DNA from: a virus
Virus record (IMG/VR): IMGVR_UViG_3300045988_183505
Span: 63,428 to 127,427 of that record
Direction: 5' to 3' (one strand)
DNA: 64,000 bases
This document shows positions 4,134 through 53,480 of the stretch, in pieces. Under the pieces are notes generated by a model. That model did no database searches. It saw only the letters and a list, made by a program, of their open reading frames with translations, and was not told the DNA's origin. The position numbers and the translations under genes were made by a program. Within the stretch, counting starts at the first letter, position 1. Each line of letters opens with the position of its first letter.

Positions 4134-5261
4134 TTATATCGCATCTAACACATTGACCGCTTCTTCATACTGGTCGTTTGTCAAATGAATATAGATATTG
4201 TAAGTGGTTGTGACACTGGAGTGACCCAGCAATTTTGAAACCACTTTTATATCAATCTTCTTTGCCAGTAGCAAACTGCCAAATGTATGTCTTAATTCAT
4301 GTGTTGTCAGCATTGGCAAATTTCCTGCCTTGCACACCTGCTGCAAATGATACCGGATTATCTCTCGCTCAGGAAGATTTCCATTGCTTTGTACAAAAAC
4401 ATACTCCGAACTTTTTACTTTTCGGAAGTAAGCAATCAATTCCCTTGCCTGCCTGTCAAGCGGTATCTTACGAATACTACATTCTGTTTTTGGTGTTTTC
4501 AGAACAAAATCGCTGCCGATTGTATTAAACTTATCATCATATTCGTTTATACGGATTCTGTTGTGATTGATAAATATTGCGTCATTTCTTACATCGCACC
4601 ATCGAAGCCCCATCAGCTCTCCGACACGAACACCGGTATGTGCGATAAACAATAACATCAATCTCGTATTTGTAACTTCTTCATACGACTTTCCTTTCAT
4701 TATGGTGTTTGTAAATATTCGCATTTCTTCCTCGTCAAAAAAGACGTGTTCTTTCTGCTCCAAAAACATATTCTTCTTCAATGTCAATTTCGACACTGGA
4801 TTTATTGTCATTAGTTTCTCTGTAACCGCCAGCTCGAACATCTCCAGAAGAACCTGTTTTATTCTCTTTGCAGTTCCATACCGAATACTCTTTTTATACC
4901 CAAGAAAAAAGTCCATCAACATTTTTGTCGTAATGCACGTCACTGGTTTGTTGACAAAATCGTACTCAGAACCTTTTAATGTTGTGATATAACTTACATA
5001 AGTATCATACGTTGCAAGTCCTGTCGTATCTCTTGTTTTGGTCAAAAAATGCTTGTAATATTCCAGCACTGTTGTTCTTGTCAGCAGCCGGATTCCATTT
5101 TCTTCTCGATATGTCTGATATGCTTTGAAGCGTTCCAAACAAATCGCTTTTGTTTTTCCGGTAAACGATTTTCTCCCCTCTGGGAATGTATACCGATATG
5201 TATACAATTTCTTTGTACTAGAAAAATTCCATGACCCCTCTCCGTTTGCTCTTTTACCCAT
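4134..5261 (-). CDS. tyrosine recombinase / phage integrase
   Basis: Carries the canonical C-terminal box HELRHTFGS...LLGHSSVTTTYNIYIHL and TGVRVGEL. The ORF track starts at 5306, but the ATG at 5261 (MGKRANGEGS) follows GGAG and leaves the upstream repeats non-coding. Confidence 0.9.
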   Translation of the reverse strand: MGKRANGEGSWNFSSTKKLYTYRYTFPEGRKSFTGKTKAICLERFKAYQTYREENGIRLLTRTTVLEYYKHFLTKTRDTTGLATYDTYVSYITTLKGSEYDFVNKPVTCITTKMLMDFFLGYKKSIRYGTAKRIKQVLLEMFELAVTEKLMTINPVSKLTLKKNMFLEQKEHVFFDEEEMRIFTNTIMKGKSYEEVTNTRLMLLFIAHTGVRVGELMGLRWCDVRNDAIFINHNRIRINEYDDKFNTIGSDFVLKTPKTECSIRKIPLDRQARELIAYFRKVKSSEYVFVQSNGNLPEREIIRYHLQQVCKAGNLPMLTTHELRHTFGSLLLAKKIDIKVVSKLLGHSSVTTTYNIYIHLTNDQYEEAVNVLDAI

Positions 5262-5295
5262 ACATCTCCTGTTCCGTTGGCTTATATACTGGATT

Positions 5296-5332
5296 TGGTA
5301 GACCAAAATGGTATACCAACGGGTATGCCAAC
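5296..5332. repeat. three spaced GGTATACC-type palindromic boxes upstream of the integrase
   Basis: ggtagaccaa / ggtataccaac / ggtatgccaac at 5296, 5310 and 5322. The core GGTATACC is self-complementary. Confidence 0.6.
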
Positions 5333-28074: not shown

Positions 28075-28174
28075 TCTCCTTATCTTTTAGCCTGTCAGCG
28101 GACTTGTGACCGCTTGTCAGTCGCATTACTTGCAACCGACATTCGTGTCGGTCGCAATCACTCTGCGTTGCAGG

Positions 28175-35475: not shown

Positions 35476-38400
35476 TCACTTCGTCACAGGCAAGGTGTCG
35501 ATGTAACGAACCAAGAACTGCAACAGTGCGGTTGCATCATTGGAATCAATCTTATCATCAGAGAAAGTGTTTGCATTGATTGCAGCCTGTCCCTTCAAAG
35601 TGATAGTGCCGATTACTGCCTTATTGAGCATAACTGCATCTGTAAGATTTACCTTTCCGTCCAAGTTCAAATCGCCATACAGCGTATTCTTCGGAACATC
35701 AGTGCCTGTTGCCGTGGTTGTTGTGCCAGAGCCTGCTCCGCTGTTGTCTGTGGAAGATGCCGTGGTGGTATCTGAACCGTTTCCAGAACCGCTTGTACCT
35801 GTTGTACCAGTGCCAGAACCATTGCCTGTTCCAGCGGTGGTCACACTGCCACTTGTGGTAGTTGCACTGCCATTGCCAGAGGATTGGTCTGTACCTGTTC
35901 CTGTAGCTGTGCTGTCGCTGTCCACAGTGGACGAAGTAACGTCAGTCGTAGAAACAGTCGTCTCTGTTCCAGAGCCGCTTACAGAGGATTCTGAACCGCC
36001 TGTGGCTGTTGTCACGGTGGTGGTTGTCTGCTTCGGAGAAGCATTGATTACCAGCGTACCAGTTACCTTGTCATAGTTATCATCATCGGGAGTATATTCC
36101 CATGTCAGAGTATTGTCGCCTTCGGTCAGCTTCTTTACCTCATCGACTACCCATGAAACAGAACCGCTCGGTGTGTCCTTACCCAGAATCAGGTCAGGCA
36201 GGTCATCTCCAGCTTCGTAGTCCTTGTCCGGAACACTTACTTCAACATTCGGGACTGCCTTTTTCACACGGAATGTCACATTCAGCTCCAGCTGAGAGCC
36301 ATTTCCGGCGGTGATTGTGATTCTTGCCTTTGTCTGTCCCACTTCTGTCGGCGTACCGGAGAGAACACCATCTTCCAATGTGATTCCCTTCGGCAGACCA
36401 GAGCCGGTTTTTGTAGTGCTTGTTGCGACCGGAACTTCCGGAGCAGGCTGATTTTCGGACAGTTCAATAGATTTGATACCGCCCACTTTACCAGCATTGC
36501 CGATATAGCTTCTCAAATCAATATCTTCCATCGGCACATTGTAGGTCAGGTCTACTGCTGCCACACCAGACTTTCCGTTTGCCCATTCCATCATCGGAGT
36601 ATCGCCGTTGTCCATATCGTCAATGTCAACATCTCTGTAGTCGCTGGTAAAAGAACCGATTGTAACATCTGTGACATCGTAGTCGTCATTACCGCCGTCC
36701 AGCTCAACCAGTGCGGTAACAGTATAATCACCTACCGGCAGCAGGACATCATAGTTTCCGTCCTTTACAGCATAGCAAGTGCCGCCGTCCGCATAAGCAT
36801 CAGCCGGAGAAGCATATTTGCTGTCGTAAAAGTATAAGATACCTCGGTTGTCGCCTTGGTCTTCTTTGAACGGCTTATATGCGTTCAGGTCTGTAAAGCT
36901 TTTCAGACGTACCCGAACAAGGTCTGTACCATCTGCCAGCTCATAAGTGCAGTCCGGAAGGAACAGCAGCTTGTCACTTCCACCTTCGGTTGTGACATCT
37001 ACGACCGGAGCATCTTTGCAATCACGCTTTTCTTCTGAAAGAACCTCGTAGTTGCCATCGCCGTCCAGATAATCCGTAGACACTTCACGAATATCCTGCA
37101 AGCCAGAATAAGACAGCAGCTTGTAGTCAGCATCGTGTGTAACAAACGCCATCTTACCGCCGACAAATTCAACAAAATAGTCGTTGCTTTCGCCATCGAA
37201 CATTTTCTTCGCTGTATCAGCTCCATATGTTCCGGTAGCATCAACTGTCAGGTCTCCAGAATCGACATTGCTGATAATCGGATATTTGTAGTCTTCCTTT
37301 GCAGTGTACAGTTCCTGCAAGCCGGTGATATAATCGCCGTTTCCCTTTGCCTTAGAAGAATCCATTTCAGAAGCAGGTGTACGGCTTGCCAGTTTATCTG
37401 TGATTGCATAGAAATTGTCAACCACATCAATCTTACCGGTATCATCACTTACCAGCTTGTCAATATCTGTAGACCGAATGATGTTGCCGTACTCTGTCTG
37501 ATTATCCGTAACAGGATTTGTCAGTCCCAGCTCACGATAATAATTATCGTAGCCAAATAAAGATACGATGTCATAAATCATTCCGGATTCATGCTGCGTA
37601 CTCGGATTCAGCTTGCTGTCAATGATACTGGACATAACAGCACCAGCAATCAAATATCCAGAGGAATCAAAAATCTGCGGCGAATGGTTCGCCGAGTAAA
37701 CCTCGCCTTCGGTTTCACCATCCATATATTCCGACTTCATCGTAAAATCCGCATTGTAATAAGTCCCCTTCGGGAGAGCGATTGCATAACCACCCTTTAC
37801 CGTATACGATGTTCCGGTAGTCGGCAAAATCTGTGTAAGTGTCATATCCTTCATCTTCGGAGAAGCATATGCCAGATTGAAGTCGTTTTCTGTCACACTT
37901 GTAACATTGCCGTTGCTGTCCGCAACATACTTGTAAAAGGTTCTGTCCCCGATTGCATGGGGCATACCCGACAGGTCAAACATATCCAGCAAAAGGCTTT
38001 TGCCGTTGATAACCGTTACAGGCTTGCCCTTATACATCTTGATGCGACAATTGGTACTCGTAGTGAAATACCCAGTCAGCTCTCTGCCTTCTTCTCCGGT
38101 AATCGCATAGAACTCATTGGTTGCAGTGCTGTCCGTGATTCCGGAAACATCGACCGGAATAATGCAGGAAGTATCAACTGTTGTCACCTGCGGTGAGTAA
38201 TTGCCGTTCTGCTTTACGATTCTTATGCTAATCAAGGGGCTGCCAACTGCTGTGCCGCCATGTGGTTCAGCATAAACCACACTGTAGCCTGCGTTGTACA
38301 TCTCGCCGAGAACCGAATTGCAGATAAGACGATTTGTAACTACCGCCTTGTACTTCTTGAAGTCTCCAGTCGTGACGAGAGAAAAGCCGATGCTCTTGGT

Positions 38401-38664
38401 GTTACCGGCTACATTCGTATCACTGTAGGAATACTTCTCCAGATTGTTGGCAAACGCCGTGTTGGGCAGTACCAGATTGATTTCCGTATCACTGAACGTA
38501 TACACGGTTTCGCTCAGCTTCTGTGTCTGCTTCTGCGAAATGTTTGTGCCTGTCACTGCACTGTTTACTGCACTCGCTGAAAGACTAGCAGTTCCAGTTG
38601 CCATACAAGCCACGGCGGTCAGTAAAGCCACATATGACTTTACCTTTCTGTGATTTGTCTTCAT
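35476..38664 (-). CDS. large secreted protein with an Ig-like repeat, a Thr/Ser/Gly linker and a C-terminal type-I dockerin
   Basis: Signal peptide after the ATG at 38664. He_PIG-like GITLEDGVLSGTPTEVG. Long TS/G-rich linker. C-terminus GDLNLDGKVNLTDAVMLNKAV ... DDKIDSNDATALLQFLV gives two dockerin Ca-binding repeats. Confidence 0.85.
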   Translation of the reverse strand: MKTNHRKVKSYVALLTAVACMATGTASLSASAVNSAVTGTNISQKQTQKLSETVYTFSDTEINLVLPNTAFANNLEKYSYSDTNVAGNTKSIGFSLVTTGDFKKYKAVVTNRLICNSVLGEMYNAGYSVVYAEPHGGTAVGSPLISIRIVKQNGNYSPQVTTVDTSCIIPVDVSGITDSTATNEFYAITGEEGRELTGYFTTSTNCRIKMYKGKPVTVINGKSLLLDMFDLSGMPHAIGDRTFYKYVADSNGNVTSVTENDFNLAYASPKMKDMTLTQILPTTGTSYTVKGGYAIALPKGTYYNADFTMKSEYMDGETEGEVYSANHSPQIFDSSGYLIAGAVMSSIIDSKLNPSTQHESGMIYDIVSLFGYDNYYRELGLTNPVTDNQTEYGNIIRSTDIDKLVSDDTGKIDVVDNFYAITDKLASRTPASEMDSSKAKGNGDYITGLQELYTAKEDYKYPIISNVDSGDLTVDATGTYGADTAKKMFDGESNDYFVEFVGGKMAFVTHDADYKLLSYSGLQDIREVSTDYLDGDGNYEVLSEEKRDCKDAPVVDVTTEGGSDKLLFLPDCTYELADGTDLVRVRLKSFTDLNAYKPFKEDQGDNRGILYFYDSKYASPADAYADGGTCYAVKDGNYDVLLPVGDYTVTALVELDGGNDDYDVTDVTIGSFTSDYRDVDIDDMDNGDTPMMEWANGKSGVAAVDLTYNVPMEDIDLRSYIGNAGKVGGIKSIELSENQPAPEVPVATSTTKTGSGLPKGITLEDGVLSGTPTEVGQTKARITITAGNGSQLELNVTFRVKKAVPNVEVSVPDKDYEAGDDLPDLILGKDTPSGSVSWVVDEVKKLTEGDNTLTWEYTPDDDNYDKVTGTLVINASPKQTTTTVTTATGGSESSVSGSGTETTVSTTDVTSSTVDSDSTATGTGTDQSSGNGSATTTSGSVTTAGTGNGSGTGTTGTSGSGNGSDTTTASSTDNSGAGSGTTTTATGTDVPKNTLYGDLNLDGKVNLTDAVMLNKAVIGTITLKGQAAINANTFSDDKIDSNDATALLQFLVRYIDTLPVTK

Positions 38665-38721
38665 TGGACATAATCTCCTTTGCAAAAAAGATTTTAGGCT
38701 TTATTCAGCCATTATTTGATT

Positions 38722-39192: not shown

Positions 39193-41307
39193 TTATTCTG
39201 TCACCGGCAAAGAAGTGATTGTGTGAACCAAGAACCGCAGCAATGTTGTTGCATCGTTGCCATCAAGATTACCGTCTGCATAGCACTCCGCATTATCCTT
39301 TGCCTGCTCATTCAACACAACAGAGCCTGCGATTGACTTGTTCAGCAGAACAGCATCAGAGATGTCCACTCTGCCGTCCAGCGTAACATCGCCCAGCAGA
39401 ATTGTACCACTGCTGCCCTGTGTGGTTACTGTAGTGGTGGTTGTGGAAGAACCCTGTCCTGTGGTGCTGGTGGTCGTTGTGCCACCGTCCAGAGCAACGA
39501 ACGGAATGTTGTTCGCAGTAGCATATGCTTCTACAGTAGAACCTGTATAACCATACAGTGTCAGGTTATCGCAACTACCAAATGCTTTGTTCTCAATCAT
39601 AATATCTGTTCTGGTAATCTTAGCTTCTCGCAATCCGGTATTCACAAATGCGTATTTTCCAATGAATGTAACATTAGAAAAATCAAAAGATTCCAGCTGT
39701 CGGCAGCTGGAAAACTGACCGCCGTTCAATCTGAGTTCTCCGTCTCCATAGGTCTTTACAGTTGTGAGATTGTACATACTTGTAAATTCTATATTTGCAG
39801 AACAGTTTACGCCCTTTTTCCCAAGCTCGAACGGTCGTTCTGTGTTGTTCATGTACAGCTCCAATGTTGAAGAAATTTTATTTCCATCTTCATCAGAAGT
39901 TGCTGTCATAATATCATCAAAAGCACCTTCATACCATTGGCTATCGTCATATACACCCAGCTTCAAGGATTCCAGTTCGGCACAATTCTTGAAAGCTTCG
40001 TTGTCAAAAAGGTGTGCAGAAGTTAAGTCCAAGCTTTTCAATTTATAGCAATTCACGAAAGCTTCTCTGCCGAAGCCAAGAGCGTTGCCAACATTGACCT
40101 TCGTCAGGTTTTCACAATAAGAGAAGTTTCCGTCACTATAATACAGCTCACCATTTCCGACTACTTCAAAAGTGTTCAGCAATCTATCTTCACGTTCAAA
40201 GTCATCAGGGAGAACATAAGCGTCCTCATTGTTGGTGTAAATCGTCATCGAATACGGCTTGACGTTTCCTTCACTTTTTTGTCTTCGTCCAAACGCATAT
40301 TCTCCTATTTCCAGCTTATCGTTCAGGGCAATTTGAATATCGTTTGCACTTGTGCAGCCAAGAAAAGCAGCATCGCCAATGTACCGCAGATTTTTGTTCT
40401 TCAACTGAATCTCTGACAGCTGTGTACAGCCTTCAAACGCATCATCAGCAACAACAACAACATGAGAGAAGTCAAAATTTCTCAGCATAGTGTTGTTCCG
40501 AAACGCCATGTTTCCGATGCCGACTTCTCCGTCACCTTCAAAGCGTACTTCACGGATTCTGTTGCTGTCATAAAATCCACTTGAAATTGTCATCATGTTG
40601 CTTTTATTCATGTTGAGTTGGAAGGTCAAAACGAATGCCGTTCCAGCAAACGAATCCCCTTCGCCAAAAATATGCTGACCTATGCCGTTAAGCTGTGCTG
40701 CTTCACAGTTTTTATCAGTAATACTGATTGTGACATCTTCCAGAGAAGAACAGCCACTGAACGCTTCGCTGCCAACACACCCCAGTTTCGTATTTGTCAG
40801 ATTTACAGTCGTCAGCTTTTCACAGCCCATAAATGCGTAATCTAACATATCTACGATTTTCTCAAAAGCCACAGTTTTCAAGCGAGAACAGCCGTGAAAT
40901 GCGTCCTTGTAGAGTACCATTTCTTCATTTTCAAAGTCTACGGACTTCAAATTAGTGCAGTTCGCAAATGCGGCTTCGCCAATAAATTTCACATCTTCTG
41001 CCAGCGTCAGACTGACGTTTTCCAGTTCACGGAATGCTTCTGTAGTGCCAGTCACAGTATAATTACCGTCACCATTATCTTCAAACGTAAAGTAATCTGT
41101 CTGACTGGTATCACACTGTACCTCTATAGGAACATTTGTAGTGGCTTCTACAAGCACAGGTGCTGTATCAGATACAGTAGTGTCACCGTCTGTTACAACA
41201 ACATCACTTGCAGTAAGGTCTACCGCCCACGCAGTCATCGGCAACGCCTGTACACACATGACACCAGCCAACAGTAAACCTGCTGCCGTTCGTTTCAACT
41301 TCTTCAT
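39193..41307 (-). CDS. BspA-type leucine-rich-repeat surface protein with a C-terminal type-I dockerin
   Basis: Signal peptide. Many repeats of the form IGxxAFxxCxxLxxV. Thr-rich linker. C-terminus GDVTLDGRVDISDAVLLNKSI ... ADGNLDGNDATTLLRFLV. The ATG at 41307 lies 9 nt after AAAGGA. Confidence 0.85.
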   Translation of the reverse strand: MKKLKRTAAGLLLAGVMCVQALPMTAWAVDLTASDVVVTDGDTTVSDTAPVLVEATTNVPIEVQCDTSQTDYFTFEDNGDGNYTVTGTTEAFRELENVSLTLAEDVKFIGEAAFANCTNLKSVDFENEEMVLYKDAFHGCSRLKTVAFEKIVDMLDYAFMGCEKLTTVNLTNTKLGCVGSEAFSGCSSLEDVTISITDKNCEAAQLNGIGQHIFGEGDSFAGTAFVLTFQLNMNKSNMMTISSGFYDSNRIREVRFEGDGEVGIGNMAFRNNTMLRNFDFSHVVVVADDAFEGCTQLSEIQLKNKNLRYIGDAAFLGCTSANDIQIALNDKLEIGEYAFGRRQKSEGNVKPYSMTIYTNNEDAYVLPDDFEREDRLLNTFEVVGNGELYYSDGNFSYCENLTKVNVGNALGFGREAFVNCYKLKSLDLTSAHLFDNEAFKNCAELESLKLGVYDDSQWYEGAFDDIMTATSDEDGNKISSTLELYMNNTERPFELGKKGVNCSANIEFTSMYNLTTVKTYGDGELRLNGGQFSSCRQLESFDFSNVTFIGKYAFVNTGLREAKITRTDIMIENKAFGSCDNLTLYGYTGSTVEAYATANNIPFVALDGGTTTTSTTGQGSSTTTTTVTTQGSSGTILLGDVTLDGRVDISDAVLLNKSIAGSVVLNEQAKDNAECYADGNLDGNDATTLLRFLVHTITSLPVTE

Positions 41308-41347
41308 GTCATCTTGTCCTTTCAAAGTATCTATCTAATTTGTTTTT

Positions 41348-45153: not shown

Positions 45154-46077
45154 TTACAGAATTATTTTTGCAAACAAGCTTTCCAGCACTGGAACTGCAA
45201 TGCTGTTTCCTGCTTGTTTGTATAAAGCCATTCGATACCTACCAGTCTTAGGTGTAACAGCCTCAGCCCTTTTGTAATCTTCGTCATTATACCCTTGCAA
45301 TCTCCAGCATTCCAACTCAGTCAAGTAACGATACCTACCTTGTCCGCAATCAACTACCTGAGCAGGTGTTCTGTCTTGCCTTGTTGTGATTGTATACGCA
45401 TAATCCTGAATCACTGTTGCCCTTTTGATTCCTTTGCCACCAATGGCTTGCAACACACTCGGTTGCGTAACATCATATACATTCGGGACAATTCGATTAT
45501 CCAAAAGAAACTCTGATATGTTTTTCATCGGTGTATGTGCTAAGCTATCAAAATCAAACGGACTGCTGCCGAGCGTTGACACTGTAAACACTCTTTGCCG
45601 TGCTTGCGGCAAACCAAAGCTTCTTGCGTCCAGTACAGCATATGCGTTGGCATATCCTAACTTCTCCATTTCATGCAGATAACGGTTGAAATTTGCTACC
45701 ATGTATTTTGACAAAACATTCTTCACATTTTCCCAGATAACGTATCTCGGTTTCCACACACCCATGTTTTGAATAATGTGAATTGTTTCCCACATCAGAC
45801 TTGACCGTGTTTCACTGCCTTCTGTGCCACCTTTCTGATGTCCTGCGATAGAGAAGTCCTGACATGGACTGCCGTGTATCAGAATATCTGGCTTCAAGTT
45901 CCACCCTACCACTGATTGTGTCTTATATTCCAACTCTTCCTTGAACATGGCGTTGTACGACCTGACAGCCTTTTTGTCTATTTCAACGTAATCAATAGCT
46001 TTGATAGGGATTCCAAGATTTCGTAAAGCACATCTCGGCGACCCGATTCCACCGAAAAGTTCCAGAATCTGAATCAT
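45154..46077 (-). CDS. DNA (cytosine-5)-methyltransferase
   Basis: Motif I LFGGIGS, motif IV GSPCQDFS, motif VI ENVKN, motif X QAGNSIAVPV. Confidence 0.9.
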   Translation of the reverse strand: MIQILELFGGIGSPRCALRNLGIPIKAIDYVEIDKKAVRSYNAMFKEELEYKTQSVVGWNLKPDILIHGSPCQDFSIAGHQKGGTEGSETRSSLMWETIHIIQNMGVWKPRYVIWENVKNVLSKYMVANFNRYLHEMEKLGYANAYAVLDARSFGLPQARQRVFTVSTLGSSPFDFDSLAHTPMKNISEFLLDNRIVPNVYDVTQPSVLQAIGGKGIKRATVIQDYAYTITTRQDRTPAQVVDCGQGRYRYLTELECWRLQGYNDEDYKRAEAVTPKTGRYRMALYKQAGNSIAVPVLESLFAKIIL

Positions 46078-48818: not shown

Positions 48819-49313
48819 TTAGTTTTCTTTTGGAGAGCTTGCATTGAACTCTGCAACTTGCAGGAGTTTTTTTGCAATCTCATAGTTCTGTTCCCAGACA
48901 CTTTTTTGAACCGGCTGCACGTCCATAATGTTCAATAGAGCCAGAAGTTTCTTCCAAAGGTCTGCCTCTGCAACAGGTCTGCCTTGCTCAGTTTCCCAGT
49001 TGTTTTGCTGCCATTGCTGATACCGTTCCTGAATCAGCACGTCTCTGACATATCCACAGTTGATGTACAAGGAAACTTTTGAACCGGATTCAACCGCTTC
49101 GGAAAGTGTACGGTTCAGAGCTGCCAATGTTGCTGTCCGCAGCATTTCTGCCTGATTGCCGTCACTCTTGCCAAATGTAAGCGATGTCATCATTCCAGTA
49201 CAGCCGCTTGCTCTATCAAGTAGATATACGGTGGAGCAAGCTTTTGAAGACGCACAATTCCATACAGATTCCACATAGATGTCATAGTGTCTTTGGTTCA
49301 CGTTGCTACACAC
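48819..49313 (-). CDS. RNase H-fold protein with substituted catalytic residues (copy 1)
   Basis: LYINCGYVRDVLIQERYQQWQQNNWETEQGRPVAEADLWKKLLALL aligns with E. coli RNase HI [46 protein letters not shown]. By this alignment D10 becomes E, E48 is kept, D70 becomes N and D134 becomes E. Confidence 0.7.
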   Translation of the reverse strand: MCSNVNQRHYDIYVESVWNCASSKACSTVYLLDRASGCTGMMTSLTFGKSDGNQAEMLRTATLAALNRTLSEAVESGSKVSLYINCGYVRDVLIQERYQQWQQNNWETEQGRPVAEADLWKKLLALLNIMDVQPVQKSVWEQNYEIAKKLLQVAEFNASSPKEN

Positions 49314-49459
49314 TCCTTTTCCAGCCCCAGCTCTGGAGCAGGTTTCTTTGCCATAATCTCATCACAGGAGCGTTCTCGCCGATATTTCTTATCCAGCTCT
49401 GCCAGCTTTGCAGCTAACTGCTCCTTGGTATAGTTCATGAGATACTGTTCTTTTGACAT
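49298..49459 (-). CDS. conserved micro-ORF (53 aa), copy 1
   Basis: MSKEQYLMNYTKEQLAAKLAELDKKYRR... after the GGAG RBS. The N-terminus matches copy 2 (MTKEEYFMNYTKEQLAEML). Overlaps the RNase H-like gene. Confidence 0.6.
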   Translation of the reverse strand: MSKEQYLMNYTKEQLAAKLAELDKKYRRERSCDEIMAKKPAPELGLEKECVAT

Positions 49460-49556
49460 TTTCTTTTTTCTCCTATCTCAGGCTTCGCTTAGGGTACGGA
49501 ACAACTTTTTGTGTTAATATAATCGCTATAAATTCTTGTTCCATACCCTGTTCCGA

Positions 49557-49683
49557 TGGTGTCCGATGCAGGATTTGCACCTGCGTAGCACATCAAAAGC
49601 AATTGAAAGAACTGCACATGATTCAATCTACGAGAGAAAGAGGTTGCTTTGGACAATGCTGTTTTCACCTAAACTACTCGGAC
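49557..49683 (-). ncRNA. tRNA-shaped RNA 1 (127 nt) with a 60-nt insertion in the anticodon loop position
   Basis: Reading the minus strand: acceptor GTCCGAG/ATCGGAC, U8-A9, D arm GTTT-AGGTGA-AAAC. Anticodon stem GCATT/GATGT closes 60 nt. Variable region GCTAC, T arm GCAGG-TGCAAAT-CCTGC, discriminator A, then CCA. Confidence 0.55.
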
Positions 49684-49751
49684 ATTGTGAGGGAAAGCTA
49701 AATCAATGAAGAAAAAGCCTTCCCTCAGAAGATATATTGGAGTGAAAATGG

Positions 49752-49876
49752 TGGTGTCTGAGACAGGGATTGCACCTGCATTCTGTATCGTCTATCACTA
49801 CACAACTTCTCTCTTACGTTGCGTTTTGCGAACAGCTTTTGCTCCAGTTACAGTGTTTTACTTAAACTACTCAGAC
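49752..49876 (-). ncRNA. tRNA-shaped RNA 2 (125 nt) with a 61-nt insertion in the anticodon loop position
   Basis: Perfect acceptor GTCTGAG/CTCAGAC, U8-A9, D arm GTTT-AAGTA-AAAC. Stem CTGTA/TACAG closes 61 nt. T arm GCAGG-TGCAATC-CCTGT, then A-CCA(CCA). Confidence 0.55.
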
Positions 49877-50054
49877 GCAAGACGGAGAAATGGAAAAACT
49901 CCGTCCTGTAAGATATATAAAAGGAGATGTTAATGGTATAACAGGCTCAAATGGGATAAAACCCTGCTATACCGAAAGGAAGCCGAATCACAGGAGCGAC
50001 CTGCTTTTCGGCGTTTGACAGGCTATCACCGCCACGCCATGAGTTTCACATATA
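49877..50054 (-). ncRNA. structured leader RNA upstream of the tRNA-like pair
   Basis: Three minus-strand hairpins: GCCGAA..CAGG-tcgct-CCTG..TTCGGC; GGTATAGCAGG/CCTGTTATACC (11 bp, one G.U, so minus-strand specific); GACGGAG/CTCCGTC just before the tRNA-like RNA. Confidence 0.35.
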
Positions 50055-50228
50055 TTACGTCTCGTTCAGTTTCAACCGTCTTCTGATTACTCCAACCACA
50101 GACGAATTGTCCTTTTCAGCCAGCTTTTTAAGCTTTTCATATTCGGAATTTGTTAAAACCAACGACACACGTTTTCTGGAAGCAATATACTTCTTCTGGG
50201 CTTTCTTCGCCGCTGCCGTCTTCGACAC
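50055..50228 (-). CDS. small ribbon-helix-helix (CopG/Arc-like) protein
   Basis: GTG start after AGGGAAG. 57 aa: ...KKYIASRKRVSLVLTNSEYEKLKKLAEKDNSSVVGVIRRRL. Below the ORF-track cutoff. Confidence 0.5.
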   Translation of the reverse strand: MSKTAAAKKAQKKYIASRKRVSLVLTNSEYEKLKKLAEKDNSSVVGVIRRRLKLNET

Positions 50229-50280: not shown

Positions 50281-50309
50281 ATTATACACTATCTGCTGTT
50301 TGCTGTCAC
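50281..50309 (-). promoter_or_regulatory. promoter of the RHH / tRNA-like / RNase H-like / VapD operon
   Basis: Minus strand reads GTGACA-GCAAACAGCAGATAGTG-TATAAT with a 17-nt spacer. Confidence 0.55.
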
Positions 50310-52188: not shown

Positions 52189-52398
52189 TTATACTCTTCT
52201 GTTCCACGCTTTATAAGCGTCCTCTTTTGAAAAATACTGTCTTCTGGGCTGGCTCAGCCCGCACTGTGTGCAATAGATTCCATACCAATGCTTATCAAGT
52301 TCTGCATCGCCATAACTGCCCAGAACATTATATTTTGCTTGTTTCAGCCTTGCTTTACCACCACAGCAAGGACAAGGCTGAATGACGCTTTTGCTCAT
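52189..52398 (-). CDS. lar: Lar-family restriction-alleviation protein
   Basis: 69 aa. PCPCCGGKARL ... YCTQCG ... SKEDAYKAWNRRV is the typical Lar zinc-ribbon pattern with the AWNRR tail. Confidence 0.75.
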   Translation of the reverse strand: MSKSVIQPCPCCGGKARLKQAKYNVLGSYGDAELDKHWYGIYCTQCGLSQPRRQYFSKEDAYKAWNRRV

Positions 52399-52868: not shown

Positions 52869-53480
52869 TCATACCGCCGGTTCTGCTTCCAGAACGGGAG
52901 CATTTTCCATAATCCACCTTGCGAAGCCATCAGCTCCACCTACCGCATCATATTCCGCTTTTGTCAATTTGACATTCACAGTAATCATTACCGGTACTTC
53001 ATCACGCACAACAGGCTGTTTTTCAGATTGGTTATCTGCCGCCTTCAAACCTTTTTCCATTCCTTGTTTTGCAAGAGCATCTGCTTTTTCATTAAGTCTG
53101 TCACTGGAGTGAGCCTTGACTTTAACAAACTGAATCGGCAGATATTGTCTTGCCTTCGCCACTCTGTCCCGATAATCCTGTGTTGCCACCTTTTTTGCTT
53201 TCCATTCGCCATCAGCCCACTTCTGTAATCCTTCATAGTCATGGTATACAGTTACAGAATCTACATCACGACTGCTCTGATTGATTTTGAACAGCAGCCG
53301 GAGAGCTTCCAGTACGCCATAGATTTCTCCGGCAACATTACGGATTCCGTCAGCATCTTCGCCGTAAAAAGAAAGTTCCTGAACCGGATTAAATCCGAAG
53401 GGAGTTTCTTGCAGAATAACTGCACCAGCTCCCCAGATGCCGTTCTTATACGAACCATCAGAATAAATTGCGTATTTCAT
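52869..53480 (-). CDS. ribonuclease HI (catalytic residues intact) with a C-terminal extension
   Basis: IYSDGS (D), AGEIYGVLEAL (E), VYHDYEG (D), VKAHSS...NEKADALAK (H, D). This is the full DEDD-type set. Confidence 0.8.
   Translation of the reverse strand: MKYAIYSDGSYKNGIWGAGAVILQETPFGFNPVQELSFYGEDADGIRNVAGEIYGVLEALRLLFKINQSSRDVDSVTVYHDYEGLQKWADGEWKAKKVATQDYRDRVAKARQYLPIQFVKVKAHSSDRLNEKADALAKQGMEKGLKAADNQSEKQPVVRDEVPVMITVNVKLTKAEYDAVGGADGFARWIMENAPVLEAEPAV

What the first reader, a model, noticed from the sequence alone, without database searches (positions are those of the whole stretch)
49557..49876. Two tandem tRNA-shaped genes with the anticodon loop replaced by ~60-nt arms
Seen in sequence (minus strand):
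- Both RNAs have a 7-bp acceptor stem, U8-A9, a 4-bp D stem starting at A14, a 5-bp T stem with a 7-nt loop (T54/A58 kept, but U55 is G), discriminator A and a genome-encoded CCA.
- A 5-bp anticodon stem (GCATT/GATGT; CTGTA/TACAG) closes 60 and 61 nt instead of 7.
- Each is preceded by a 7-bp hairpin (GAGGGAA/TTCCCTC; GACGGAG/CTCCGTC) and an ATATATCTT box that matches half of the class-2 operator.
- The arms share flanks (CAAAGCAAC / CAAAACGCAAC ... GTAG). Their centres are a pyrimidine run in RNA 1 (UUCUCUC) and a purine run in RNA 2 (GAGAGAA), which are exactly complementary over 7 nt. A kissing interaction is possible, though chance cannot be excluded for low-complexity runs.
- In RNA 1 the first loop bases read G-U-CCA-A (U33, anticodon CCA, A37). 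This also fits an intron at position 37/38, but RNA 2 does not fit that reading.

Bacterial tRNA introns are group I and far longer, so either reading is unusual.
Basis: seen in the sequence. Interest (0 to 1): 0.85.

Follow-up and report, generated by a model that had tools for sequence, protein, structure and literature searches.

The report
tRNA-shaped RNAs with giant anticodon arms
A common human-gut prophage carries tRNA-shaped RNA genes that cannot decode codons, because the anticodon loop is replaced by a 10-61 nt arm; they sit in a conserved, twice-repeated cassette next to a small protein and a probably inactive RNase H, and nothing like this cassette was found in Rfam or the literature I could search.

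Summary
On the minus strand, 49876-49752 (125 nt) and 49683-49557 (127 nt) each form a cloverleaf: acceptor stem, U8, 4-bp D stem, 5-bp T stem with a 7-nt loop, A73 and an encoded CCA. The 5-bp "anticodon" stem closes 61 and 60 nt. ARAGORN calls nothing; Rfam tRNA scores RNA1 at 29.4 bits with a 64-nt insertion. Six paralogues/orthologues keep 98% of cloverleaf pairs, and 13 of 21 pairs show compensatory changes.

These RNAs belong to a cassette present twice in the window (50051-48819 and 63003-62000). Each copy has a structured leader with two T-arm-like hairpins, a stable hairpin 1-4 nt upstream of each tRNA-like unit, and one to three tRNA-like units with aberrant anticodon arms. A conserved small ORF follows, overlapping an RNase HI-fold gene that lacks catalytic Asp70.

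The proposed kissing pair is no better than chance. The intron reading is not supported.

Best reading (about 0.4): these are non-decoding, tRNA-derived modules that recruit RNase P and tRNA 3'-end maturation to cut and stabilise a leader transcript, and whose arms are free to carry extra RNA. An RNA-protein complex with the dead RNase H remains possible. The family is real and unannotated; its function is unknown.

The parts
50281..50309 (-). Sigma-70-like promoter (GTGACA-17-TATAAT) upstream of the RHH gene. It is the likely start of the module A transcript in this lineage.
   Evidence: 11 of 12 consensus positions. This is a consensus match only.
50055..50228 (-). Arc/CopG-like ribbon-helix-helix repressor gene directly upstream of module A.
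   Evidence: Pfam RHH_7 at 1.7e-4; PHROG Arc-like repressor at 4e-5.
49982..50051 (-). Module A leader, hairpins P1-P3. P1 is AUG-UGAAACU-CAU and P2 is GGCGG-UGAUAGC-CUGUC; both are T-arm-like (7-nt loop starting UG, closed by G-C). P3 is GCCGAA...UUCGGC and encloses CAGG-UCGCU-CCUG.
   Evidence: RNAalifold on six sequences from four module types gives three hairpins with 4 compensatory pairs. Coordinates.
49935..49973 (-). Module A leader hairpin P4. The stem varies with compensation between lineages; the loop UUUUAYCCCAUUUGA is conserved.
   Evidence: stem pairs kept through changes on both sides between the window type and the L type. Coordinates.
49878..49908 (-). 10-bp hairpin ending 1 nt before the 5' end of RNA2, preceded by an ATATATCTT box (49910-49918).
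   Evidence: It is 96% identical between lineages whose spacers are 63% identical.
49752..49876 (-). tRNA-like RNA2 (125 nt). Its 61-nt anticodon arm carries the GAGAGAA run in a predicted hairpin loop.
   Evidence: The orthologue in L-type phages is 118 nt, and its three T-stem changes all preserve pairing.
49688..49727 (-). 11-bp hairpin ending 4 nt before RNA1, preceded by an ATATATCTT box (49729-49737).
49557..49683 (-). tRNA-like RNA1 (127 nt). Its 60-nt arm is about 15 bp of helix followed by a pyrimidine-rich internal loop (CCUCUUUCU / UUCUUUCAA).
   Evidence: (Rfam tRNA, 29.4 bits).
49491..49549 (-). 14-bp hairpin between RNA1 and the small ORF, with no U tract. L-type relatives have an intrinsic terminator at this position.
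   Evidence: Read from the sequence; coordinates. L-type terminator.
49298..49459 (-). Small ORF (53 aa, MSKEQYLMNYTKEQLA...), conserved at protein level in all four module types.
   Evidence: Differences between paralogues are mostly synonymous.
48819..49301 (-). RNase HI-fold protein of module A. The GTG start overlaps the small ORF's TGA stop (GTGA), which suggests translational coupling. Catalytic Asp70 is replaced by Asn.
   Evidence: (Foldseek hit to E. coli RNase HI, TM 0.71).
62931..63003 (-). Module B leader, hairpins P1-P3 (UGUG-UGAAAUU-CACA; AACCG-UGACAGC-CGGUU; GUCGGA...UCCGGC), starting just after the ERF gene stop.
62793..62824 (-). 10-bp hairpin ending 2 nt before the module B tRNA-like RNA.
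   Evidence: The orthologous hairpin in L133 is kept with base changes.
62711..62790 (-). Third tRNA-like RNA in the window (80 nt). Its minimum-energy fold is a perfect cloverleaf with a 10-12-nt 'anticodon' loop, T loop UGAAAGU, A73 and CCA.
   Evidence: (57.1 bits to model R1).
62586..62690 (-). Module B small ORF (34 aa, MTKEEYFMNYTKEQLA...). Its ATG lies 20 nt after the CCA of the tRNA-like RNA.
62000..62599 (-). Module B RNase HI-fold paralogue. It is 33% identical to the module A protein and overlaps the small ORF by 14 nt. Asp70 is replaced by Ser and Glu48 is lost.

Best explanation
The two RNAs are non-decoding, tRNA-derived structural modules within a larger structured leader transcript of a prophage early operon.

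**Proposed mechanism**
- Each cloverleaf keeps what the host tRNA-maturation machinery needs: a 7-bp acceptor stem stacked on a 5-bp T arm, G+1, usually U-1, and N73-CCA.
- RNase P is therefore expected to cut at G+1 of each unit.
- That cut would leave the upstream RNA ending in the stable 10-11-bp hairpin that sits 1-4 nt upstream, which would resist exonucleases. This is the same logic as 3'-end formation in MALAT1/mascRNA.
- It would also release compact, stable tRNA-shaped RNAs.
- The downstream mRNA (small ORF plus degenerate RNase HI) would be separated and keep only a short leader.
- The anticodon arm is not needed for this role. It is free to shrink, expand or carry extra RNA, as in synthetic 'tRNA scaffold' constructs.

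**Shown**
- The cloverleaf and its conservation.
- The position of the hairpins.
- The cassette architecture and its duplication.
- The loss of any usable anticodon loop.

**Inferred**
- RNase P and 3'-end processing.
- The stabilising role of the hairpins.
- What the arms do.
For: **Cloverleaf kept, decoding lost**
- Four stems are 98.4% paired across six paralogues/orthologues, and 13 of 21 pairs show compensatory change.
- Anticodon loops are 10, 11, 12, 54, 60 and 61 nt, and one unit has no D arm.

**RNase P-type determinants are the invariant part**
- Always G1-C72, U2-A71 and CCA; N73 is A or G.
- The base at -1 is U in 5 of 7 units.

**Hairpins**
- Every unit in every module has a strong hairpin ending 1-5 nt upstream.
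- Hairpin 1 is 96% identical between lineages whose spacers are 63% identical.

**Transcription unit**
- In L-type relatives the RNA cluster has its own 12/12 consensus promoter and an intrinsic terminator.

**Conservation**
- Between lineages, RNA2 (85%, or 90% without the 7-nt indel) and the leader (79.5%) are as conserved as the coding genes (79%), while spacers are at 63%.

**No base-pairing target**
- None was found for the arms locally, in the window or in phage genomes. This fits a structural role better than an antisense role.

**Precedent**
- RNase P processes tRNA-like elements in non-tRNA transcripts, including MALAT1/mascRNA, polycistronic mRNAs and phage P1 C4 RNA (review PMC4919922).
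Against: - There is no expression or end-mapping data, so processing is wholly inferred.
- A hairpin 1-4 nt from the cleavage site could hinder RNase P rather than help.
- With an encoded CCA followed by a long mRNA, 3' maturation would also need an endonucleolytic cut that I cannot identify.
- A pure processing signal does not explain three things: why the RNA2 arm is about 90% conserved between lineages, why the leader carries two T-arm-like hairpins, or why the cassette is always tied to the small ORF and the degenerate RNase HI (4 of 4 modules).
- Deletion variants with broken units exist (L112, L119, L115), so individual units are dispensable or those genomes are defective.
- The comparative depth is shallow: two lineages and four module types.
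Confidence: 0.4

Rival explanations
1. The tRNA-like RNAs are the RNA component (ligand, guide, decoy or autoregulatory mimic) of a ribonucleoprotein formed with the co-encoded small protein and the catalytically degenerate RNase HI-fold protein. The tRNA core would be the handle the protein recognises. The variable arm would be the specificity or payload part. Alternatively, the leader mimics the protein's real target (host tRNA) for feedback control, as in thrS.
For: - The linkage is strict: all four modules (two in the window, two in the L lineage) have the order leader, tRNA-like unit(s), small ORF, RNase HI-fold gene.
- The protein has an RNase HI fold (TM 0.71) and retains the substrate-binding 'handle' region (WxxxGWKT...LW). 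It has lost Asp70, and the B type has also lost Glu48. That is the profile of a nucleic-acid binder rather than a nuclease.
- The protein family is confined to this phage group: two 50%-identity clusters among 1.84 billion representatives. It has therefore co-evolved with the RNA.
- Conserved scaffolds with diverse inserts are typical of guide or template arrays.
Against: - No target complementarity was found for any arm.
- The number of units varies (1, 2 or 3) and the shape varies drastically (10-nt loop, 60-nt arm, no D arm).
- Variants keep the proteins but have lost or truncated RNAs.
- No direct evidence of binding can be obtained with these tools.
Confidence: 0.22
2. They are cis/trans antisense regulators of the downstream operon, analogous to the C4 RNA of phage P1/P7 immI. 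C4 is processed by RNase P from the leader of its own operon and then blocks the ribosome-binding site of a small ORF (icd) that is translationally coupled to the effector gene (ant).
For: - The architecture is parallel: an Arc-like RHH repressor gene, RNA(s) with tRNA-like ends, a small ORF overlapping the next gene, then an effector gene.
- RNA1 exposes CU-rich strands that could pair with purine-rich ribosome-binding sites.
Against: - No arm or loop has complementarity to its own flanking 0.8-1.5 kb beyond what shuffles give: p = 0.17-0.92, with one unit at 0.05 that is not conserved.
- The Rfam C4 model does not match either module at E <= 10.
- Module B has no RHH gene.
Confidence: 0.1
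3. They are decoys or mimics of host tRNA. They would soak up a tRNA-binding host factor, such as an anticodon nuclease or other tRNA-targeting defence, a modification enzyme, a synthetase or the CCA-adding enzyme.
For: - The tRNA body and CCA end are retained while decoding is lost.
- They lie in the early/anti-defence region of the prophage, near a Lar-like restriction-alleviation gene and a C5 methylase.
- Phage tRNAs are known to counter tRNA-targeting defences (my own knowledge).
Against: - Anticodon nucleases recognise the anticodon loop, which is exactly the part that is missing.
- This does not explain the leader, the hairpins or the linkage to the RNase HI-fold gene.
Confidence: 0.12
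4. They are decaying tRNA pseudogenes or recombination scars with no function.
For: - The closest sequence relatives are ordinary phage tRNAs with the same GGUGCAA T loop and GUC...GAC-ACCA ends: Arg and Leu genes in phage tRNA arrays.
- Natural variants carry deletions whose junctions lie inside the units.
- One orthologous position (RNA1 versus L2) is only 53% identical.
Against: - Random decay would erode stems as fast as loops. Here all stems are intact with compensatory or wobble-preserving changes, including between orthologues (RNA2 window type versus L type; module B window versus L133). Only the anticodon loop is aberrant, in every one of seven or more units.
- The units are embedded in a duplicated, conserved cassette.
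Confidence: 0.1
5. They are genuine tRNAs interrupted by a small intron that is spliced out. The reader raised this for RNA1 as tRNA-Trp(CCA).
For: In one register the RNA1 loop starts G-U-CCA-A.
Against: - The inserts are 54-61 nt, against 200 nt or more for group I introns (my own knowledge), and no Rfam match other than tRNA covers either RNA at E <= 10.
- There is no bulge-helix-bulge.
- RNA2 and every other unit lack U33 and an anticodon in register.
- A73 does not fit bacterial Trp identity (my own knowledge).
- ARAGORN calls nothing.
- No splicing endonuclease or RNA ligase was found among the window proteins I scanned, although many ORFs remain unannotated.
Confidence: 0.03

Closest known systems
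MALAT1/MEN-beta with mascRNA/menRNA (eukaryotic lncRNA 3'-end formation by RNase P at a tRNA-like element)
   Same: A tRNA-like element lacking a normal anticodon loop sits inside a longer non-tRNA transcript. Directly upstream is a structure that would protect the newly made 3' end. The tRNA-like piece is released as a separate small RNA (review PMC4919922).
   Different: This one is bacterial and phage-borne. It has one to three units in tandem, a hairpin rather than a triple helix, and an encoded CCA. Processing has not been shown here. There is no sequence relationship.
C4 antisense RNA of phages P1/P7 (Rfam RF01695) and the immI operon
   Same: A phage regulatory RNA is cut out of the leader of its own operon by RNase P. 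It is followed by a small ORF translationally coupled to the next gene. An Arc-type repressor appears in comparable immI regions (my own knowledge, plus the reference list in PMC4919922).
   Different: There is no Rfam C4 match. No complementarity to the downstream ribosome-binding region was found. These RNAs are full cloverleaves, whereas C4 is not.
Bacterial Y RNA YrlA (tRNA-mimicking module bound with Ro60/Rsr)
   Same: A non-decoding RNA with tRNA-like D, T and acceptor elements, also found in phages (PMC4201824, listed).
   Different: In YrlA the RNA ends lie in the stem that replaces the anticodon stem, and the acceptor-like stem is closed (my own knowledge). Here the ends lie at the acceptor stem with CCA. 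No Ro60 gene was found among the proteins scanned and there is no Rfam hit.
tmRNA
   Same: A tRNA-like acceptor/T-arm domain with a large insertion between the halves.
   Different: There is no G3-U70, no pseudoknots and no conserved tag reading frame. ARAGORN finds no tmRNA. The RNAs are only 80-127 nt, and a D stem is present.
Engineered 'tRNA scaffold' RNAs (a foreign RNA inserted in place of the anticodon loop for stable expression; my own knowledge)
   Same: The topology is identical: an intact acceptor, T and D body, with the payload inserted in the anticodon stem. The rationale is processing by tRNA enzymes and nuclease resistance.
   Different: Those are synthetic. Whether the natural arms here are payloads is unknown.
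GOLLD and ROOL large phage-associated RNAs
   Same: Large structured non-coding RNAs of Firmicute phages that lie next to, or contain, tRNAs, with unknown function (my own knowledge).
   Different: Neither model matches at gathering level in the window or at E <= 10 in the two module regions. The fold and size differ.

Membership tests
Canonical tRNA (Rfam RF00005) | Cloverleaf with 7-bp acceptor, D, anticodon and T stems, N73 and CCA | tested here: met
   RNA1 has one G-A mismatch at pair 7-66.
Canonical tRNA (Rfam RF00005) | 7-nt anticodon loop with U33 and a readable anticodon | tested here: not met
   Loops are 60 and 61 nt here and 10-12 or 54 nt in relatives. ARAGORN makes no call.
Canonical tRNA (Rfam RF00005) | Score at or above the Rfam gathering threshold | tested here: inconclusive
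   RNA1 scores 29.4 against 29 bits, but only in a permissive local scan. It is not reported in the whole-window gathering scan. RNA2 is not reported at all.
Canonical tRNA (Rfam RF00005) | Conserved elbow nucleotides (G18 G19 in the D loop; U55 C56 in the T loop) | tested here: not met
   Position 55 is G in all units. Position 56 is C or A. D loops are 5-6 nt (AAGUA, AAAAA, AGGUGA).
tRNA with group I intron | Self-splicing group I core (over 200 nt) inserted in the anticodon loop | tested here: not met
   Inserts are 54-61 nt. No Rfam match other than tRNA with E <= 10 covers either RNA.
tRNA with archaeal/eukaryal-type intron | Bulge-helix-bulge at the exon-intron junctions, position 37/38, and a splicing endonuclease | tested here: not met
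   The predicted arm has 1-nt bulges on one strand only. Only RNA1 can be read with an anticodon. No endonuclease was found among the scanned proteins.
tmRNA | tRNA-Ala-like domain (G3-U70) plus a tag ORF and pseudoknots | tested here: not met
   Pair 3-70 is C-G or U-A. ARAGORN finds no tmRNA.
Y RNA / YrlA | RNA ends in the long stem opposite the tRNA-like module, and an Ro60 partner | tested here: not met
   The topology has its ends at the acceptor stem with CCA. No Rfam hit. No TROVE/Ro60 hit among the 30 window proteins scanned against Pfam; most small ORFs were not scanned.
P1/P7 C4 antisense RNA | Loops complementary to sites in its own operon leader or ribosome-binding site | tested here: not met
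   The best helices are no better than shuffles. No RF01695 match.
P1/P7 C4 antisense RNA | 5' end made by RNase P from the operon leader | not testable with these tools
   This needs end mapping or in vitro cleavage.
RNase P-processed tRNA-like punctuation element (mascRNA type) | Acceptor/T-arm stack with G+1 and a 3' RCCA or equivalent, embedded in a longer transcript | tested here: met
   The flanking promoter and terminator define a longer transcript in L-type relatives.
RNase P-processed tRNA-like punctuation element (mascRNA type) | Demonstrated cleavage and accumulation of the products | not testable with these tools
   No transcript data are available here.
RNase HI (Pfam PF00075), for the linked protein | RNase H fold | tested here: met
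   AlphaFold2 mean pLDDT 83. The Foldseek top hits are E. coli RNase HI, TM 0.71, E = 1e-10.
RNase HI (Pfam PF00075), for the linked protein | Catalytic Asp10, Glu48, Asp70 and Asp134 | tested here: not met
   The profile alignment places Asn (A type) or Ser (B type) at Asp70. By my reading, Asp10 is Glu, Glu48 is Ile in the B type, and no Asp aligns with Asp134.

The most novel reading that the evidence does not exclude
The cassette is a previously undescribed phage RNA-protein system. In it, a catalytically dead RNase HI-fold protein and its small partner would use tRNA-scaffolded RNAs whose variable 'anticodon' arms act as guide, decoy or payload. The leader's two T-arm-like hairpins might dock the tRNA elbow.

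More broadly, long-armed tRNA-shaped RNAs may be an overlooked class in phages. A narrowly patterned scan also turned up a 148-nt and a 100-nt example inside the tRNA arrays of unrelated phages.
Probability: 0.18. Interest if true: 0.85.

Novelty: new variant of a known kind. Interest (0 to 1): 0.68.

Why it matters
- tRNA finders and Rfam's gathering scan miss these genes, yet the prophage is common. The linked protein is indexed in 90 blocks of the assembly collection, 78 of them with contigs of 0.2-1 Mb, and every place shown came from a different metagenome sample.
- If the tRNA body is used as a natural scaffold for processing and stability, this would be a bacterial or phage counterpart of mascRNA-type 3'-end formation and of the synthetic tRNA-scaffold trick.
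- If instead the RNAs work together with the dead RNase HI, it would be a new kind of phage RNA-protein system.
- Either way it gives a concrete, testable case of tRNA genes being re-purposed after losing their decoding function.

Tried and rejected
**Kissing pair between RNA1 and RNA2: rejected**
- 413 of 1000 shuffles do as well.
- L-type relatives have no partner for the purine run.

**Antisense targets: none found**
- No complementary match longer than 12 nt in the window.
- Nothing above shuffles in the flanks.
- Nothing with E < 0.4 in 50,697 phage genomes.
- ViennaRNA duplexfold energies on the long arms gave loose, uninterpretable duplexes, and I did not use them.

**ORFs apparently reading into the arms (contigs L112 and L119): explained**
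- For a while these looked like a tmRNA-like or coding signal.
- BLAST against the window shows that both contigs are deletion variants joined inside RNA1 or RNA2.

**More distant homologues: none found**
- Eight IMG/VR scans, one GTDB scan and one metagenome scan, using DNA patterns or peptides.
- Three word-indexed protein searches and one full HMMER search.
- All returned only two lineages.

**No cultured or annotated relative**
- INPHARED phages and PLSDB plasmids gave nothing. The only hit was a remote RNase H.

**Other checks**
- Rfam matches to cow-rumen-1, GlsR8 and similar families in the region are far below their thresholds.
- UG27 reverse-transcriptase ncRNA arrays (bioRxiv 10.64898/2026.09.22.753630) were considered. 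Those units are about 150-nt hairpins and the system includes a reverse transcriptase; none was found among the proteins scanned here.
- Literature searches found no description of this cassette.
Full report
**1. The observation**

- Acceptor stems are GUCUGAG/CUCAGAC (7 of 7 pairs) and GUCCGAG/AUCGGAC (6 of 7, with a G7-A66 mismatch).
- Both have U8-A9, a GUUU/AAAC D stem, 5-bp T stems with 7-nt loops UGCAAUC and UGCAAAU (U54 and A58 kept, G at 55), A73 and an encoded CCA.
- The 5-bp 'anticodon' stems close 61 and 60 nt.

Software results:
- ARAGORN calls no tRNA or tmRNA anywhere in the window.
- The whole-window Rfam gathering scan reports only a Twister-P5 ribozyme elsewhere.
- A permissive local scan aligns RNA1 to the tRNA model end to end at 29.4 bits (gathering score 29), with a 64-nt insertion in the anticodon loop.
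- The minimum-energy fold of RNA1 is itself a long-armed cloverleaf. For RNA2 the cloverleaf lies 2.6 kcal/mol above the minimum.

**2. Relatives and covariation**

Pattern scans of IMG/VR, GTDB genomes and metagenomes, together with look-ups of contigs that encode the neighbouring protein, recovered two lineages.
- The window type is a prophage found inside contigs of 350-850 kb from many human-gut metagenomes.
- The 'L type' occurs on contigs of 116-258 kb, one of which carries ParA/ParB.

The L type has three units at the same locus:
- an orthologue of RNA2 (118 nt, 54-nt arm);
- a unit of 74-80 nt without a D arm;
- a 79-nt cloverleaf with an 11-nt loop.

A relaxed pattern then revealed a third unit in the window itself, at 62790-62711 (80 nt, 10-12-nt loop). 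An orthologue lies in L133 (77 nt, G73).

I made a gapless, hand-trimmed alignment of six distinct units and counted pairs on it.
- The cloverleaf is 98.4% paired.
- Thirteen of 21 pairs show changes on both sides.
- Controls with the 3' partner slid by 1-3 columns give 33-45% paired.

Two caveats apply. I fitted the alignment to the structure. Also, paralogues could descend from different tRNAs, in which case covariation between them is trivial.

The orthologue comparisons are therefore the more telling evidence. All three T-stem differences between window-type and L-type RNA2 preserve pairing, and the module B pair keeps every stem.

None of the seven or more units has a 7-nt loop with U33. 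The shape is kept while decoding is lost.

**3. The wider cassette**

Both loci in the window share one architecture.
- A leader comes first. P1 and P2 are hairpins with G-C-closed 7-nt loops that begin UG and have A at position 5, so they resemble T arms. P3 is a stem enclosing a small hairpin.
- More hairpins follow, then a 10-11-bp hairpin ending 1-4 nt before each tRNA-like unit.
- Then come one to three units.
- Next is a small ORF (M[ST]KE.Y.MN[YF]TKEQLA...), conserved at protein level.
- Its stop codon overlaps the start of an RNase HI-fold gene (GTGA in module A; a 14-nt overlap in module B).

RNAalifold recovers P1-P3 across four module types with four compensatory pairs. It also recovers P4 and hairpin 1 in module A with no broken pairs.

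The two linked proteins are 33% identical to each other.
- The AlphaFold model (pLDDT 83) matches E. coli RNase HI at TM 0.71.
- The profile alignment puts Asn or Ser at catalytic Asp70. The B type also lacks Glu48.
- The enzyme is therefore probably inactive, although the substrate-binding handle is conserved.
- A full HMMER search of 1.84 billion representative proteins finds only two clusters of this subfamily before ordinary RNase H sequences begin.

**4. Transcription**
- In the window, a promoter-like site (11 of 12 consensus positions) lies upstream of the Arc-like RHH gene that precedes module A.
- In the L type, a 12/12 consensus promoter and an intrinsic terminator bracket the RNA cluster.

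**5. Conservation**

Identity between the two lineages, by segment:

| Segment | Identity |
|---|---|
| Small ORF | 79% |
| RNase HI-fold gene | 79% |
| Leader P1-P3 | 79.5% |
| Hairpin 1 | 96% |
| RNA2 | 85% (90% without a 7-nt indel) |
| Spacers | 63% |
| RNA1 versus its positional counterpart (L2) | 53% |

Population variants exist in which deletions end inside RNA1 (L112) or RNA2 (L119), or remove 14 nt of a unit (L115).

**6.
- Kissing. The best inter-arm helix is the 8-bp UUUCUCUC/GAGAGAAG, and 41% of shuffles equal it. The L type has no partner for the purine run.
- Intron. The inserts are far too small for group I, and no Rfam match other than tRNA covers either RNA. There is no bulge-helix-bulge, and only RNA1 can be read that way.

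**7. Tests of my own ideas**
- Antisense regulation of the P1 C4 type is attractive because of the layout: Arc-like repressor, RNA, small overlapping ORF, effector gene.
- However, no arm pairs with its flanks better than shuffles do. The window and phage databases contain no target.

**8. Interpretation**

The invariant parts are the ones tRNA-maturation enzymes read: the acceptor/T-arm stack, G+1, N73-CCA and mostly U-1. The variable part is the anticodon arm. A stable hairpin sits immediately upstream of every unit.

The simplest mechanism that accounts for all three facts is RNase P-driven punctuation of a structured leader transcript. The hairpins would protect the new 3' ends, and the tRNA body would serve as a stable scaffold. 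This is the logic of MALAT1/mascRNA and of other non-tRNA RNase P substrates (PMC4919922).

I put this at about 0.4. It leaves two things unexplained: the strict link to the degenerate RNase HI, and the conservation of the RNA2 arm. The ribonucleoprotein reading (about 0.2) would explain both.

**9. Novelty**

I found no Rfam family and no paper describing the cassette. I rate it a new variant of a known kind, namely tRNA-derived non-coding RNA. The comparative depth is limited and there are no expression data.

Noticed in passing
window 28098-28167 (-): A Type-P5 twister ribozyme scores 54.6 bits against a gathering score of 37.6 (E = 1.4e-8). It is the only Rfam gathering-level hit in the window.
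   Followed up: no
window 62711-62790 (-) and 62000-63003 (-): A third tRNA-like RNA and a second full copy of the cassette (leader, hairpins, small ORF, RNase HI-fold paralogue) lie directly after the ERF recombinase gene.
   Followed up: yes
window 28921, 42294, 42935, 49729, 49910 (-); 33587, 58379 (+): ATATATCTT occurs 7 times against 0.58 expected. Two copies are extended as ATATATCTTACAG (42935 and 49910). This may be an operator or promoter element of the prophage.
   Followed up: partly
L073 13001-13148 (-) and L094 8520-8667 (+); L071 5053-5152 (+): Unrelated IMG/VR phages carry, inside their tRNA gene arrays, two RNAs that ARAGORN does not call. One is 148 nt and its minimum-energy fold is a cloverleaf with a 92-nt anticodon arm. 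The other is 100 nt with an acceptor stem, a long arm and a T arm but no D arm. Long-armed tRNA-like genes may be more widespread than this one lineage.
   Followed up: partly
L033 7594-7665 (+) and L062 13206-13277 (-): A 72-nt phage tRNA-like gene with a 5-nt 'anticodon' loop (UCUGG-UUAAU-CCAGA). ARAGORN does not call it, but it scores 43 bits with model R1.
   Followed up: no
L112 and L119 (human-gut metagenome contigs), against window 49676/50630 and 49846/52222: These are natural deletion variants whose junctions fall inside RNA1 and RNA2. In L119 the Lar-like gene (window 52189-52398) is fused in frame to the RNA2 arm. In L112 a short ORF reads into RNA1.
   Followed up: yes
window 52869-53480 (-), 52189-52398 (-), 45154-46077 (-): A third RNase H gene with a full-length Pfam match, a Lar-family restriction-alleviation-like gene and a C5 cytosine methylase lie between and downstream of the two cassettes.
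   Followed up: partly
window 35476-38685 (-) and 39193-41325 (-); 4134-5306 (-): Two large proteins end in dockerin type I domains, and one also has BspA-type leucine-rich repeats. This suggests a cellulosome- or amylosome-bearing Clostridia host such as Ruminococcus. A tyrosine integrase at 4134-5306 probably marks the prophage end.
   Followed up: no
L133 1066-2756 (+): The L-type relative encodes ParA/ParB upstream of ERF. That lineage may be an extrachromosomal phage-plasmid, whereas the window type is integrated.
   Followed up: no
window 49547-49586 (-): There is a weak Rfam match (18 bits against a gathering score of 53.4) of the RNA1 T arm, 3' acceptor strand and trailer to cow-rumen-1 RNA. 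The tail matches fairly well (CGGACAC.AUCG.A..AGG). It is probably chance, but I could not inspect the seed alignment.
   Followed up: partly
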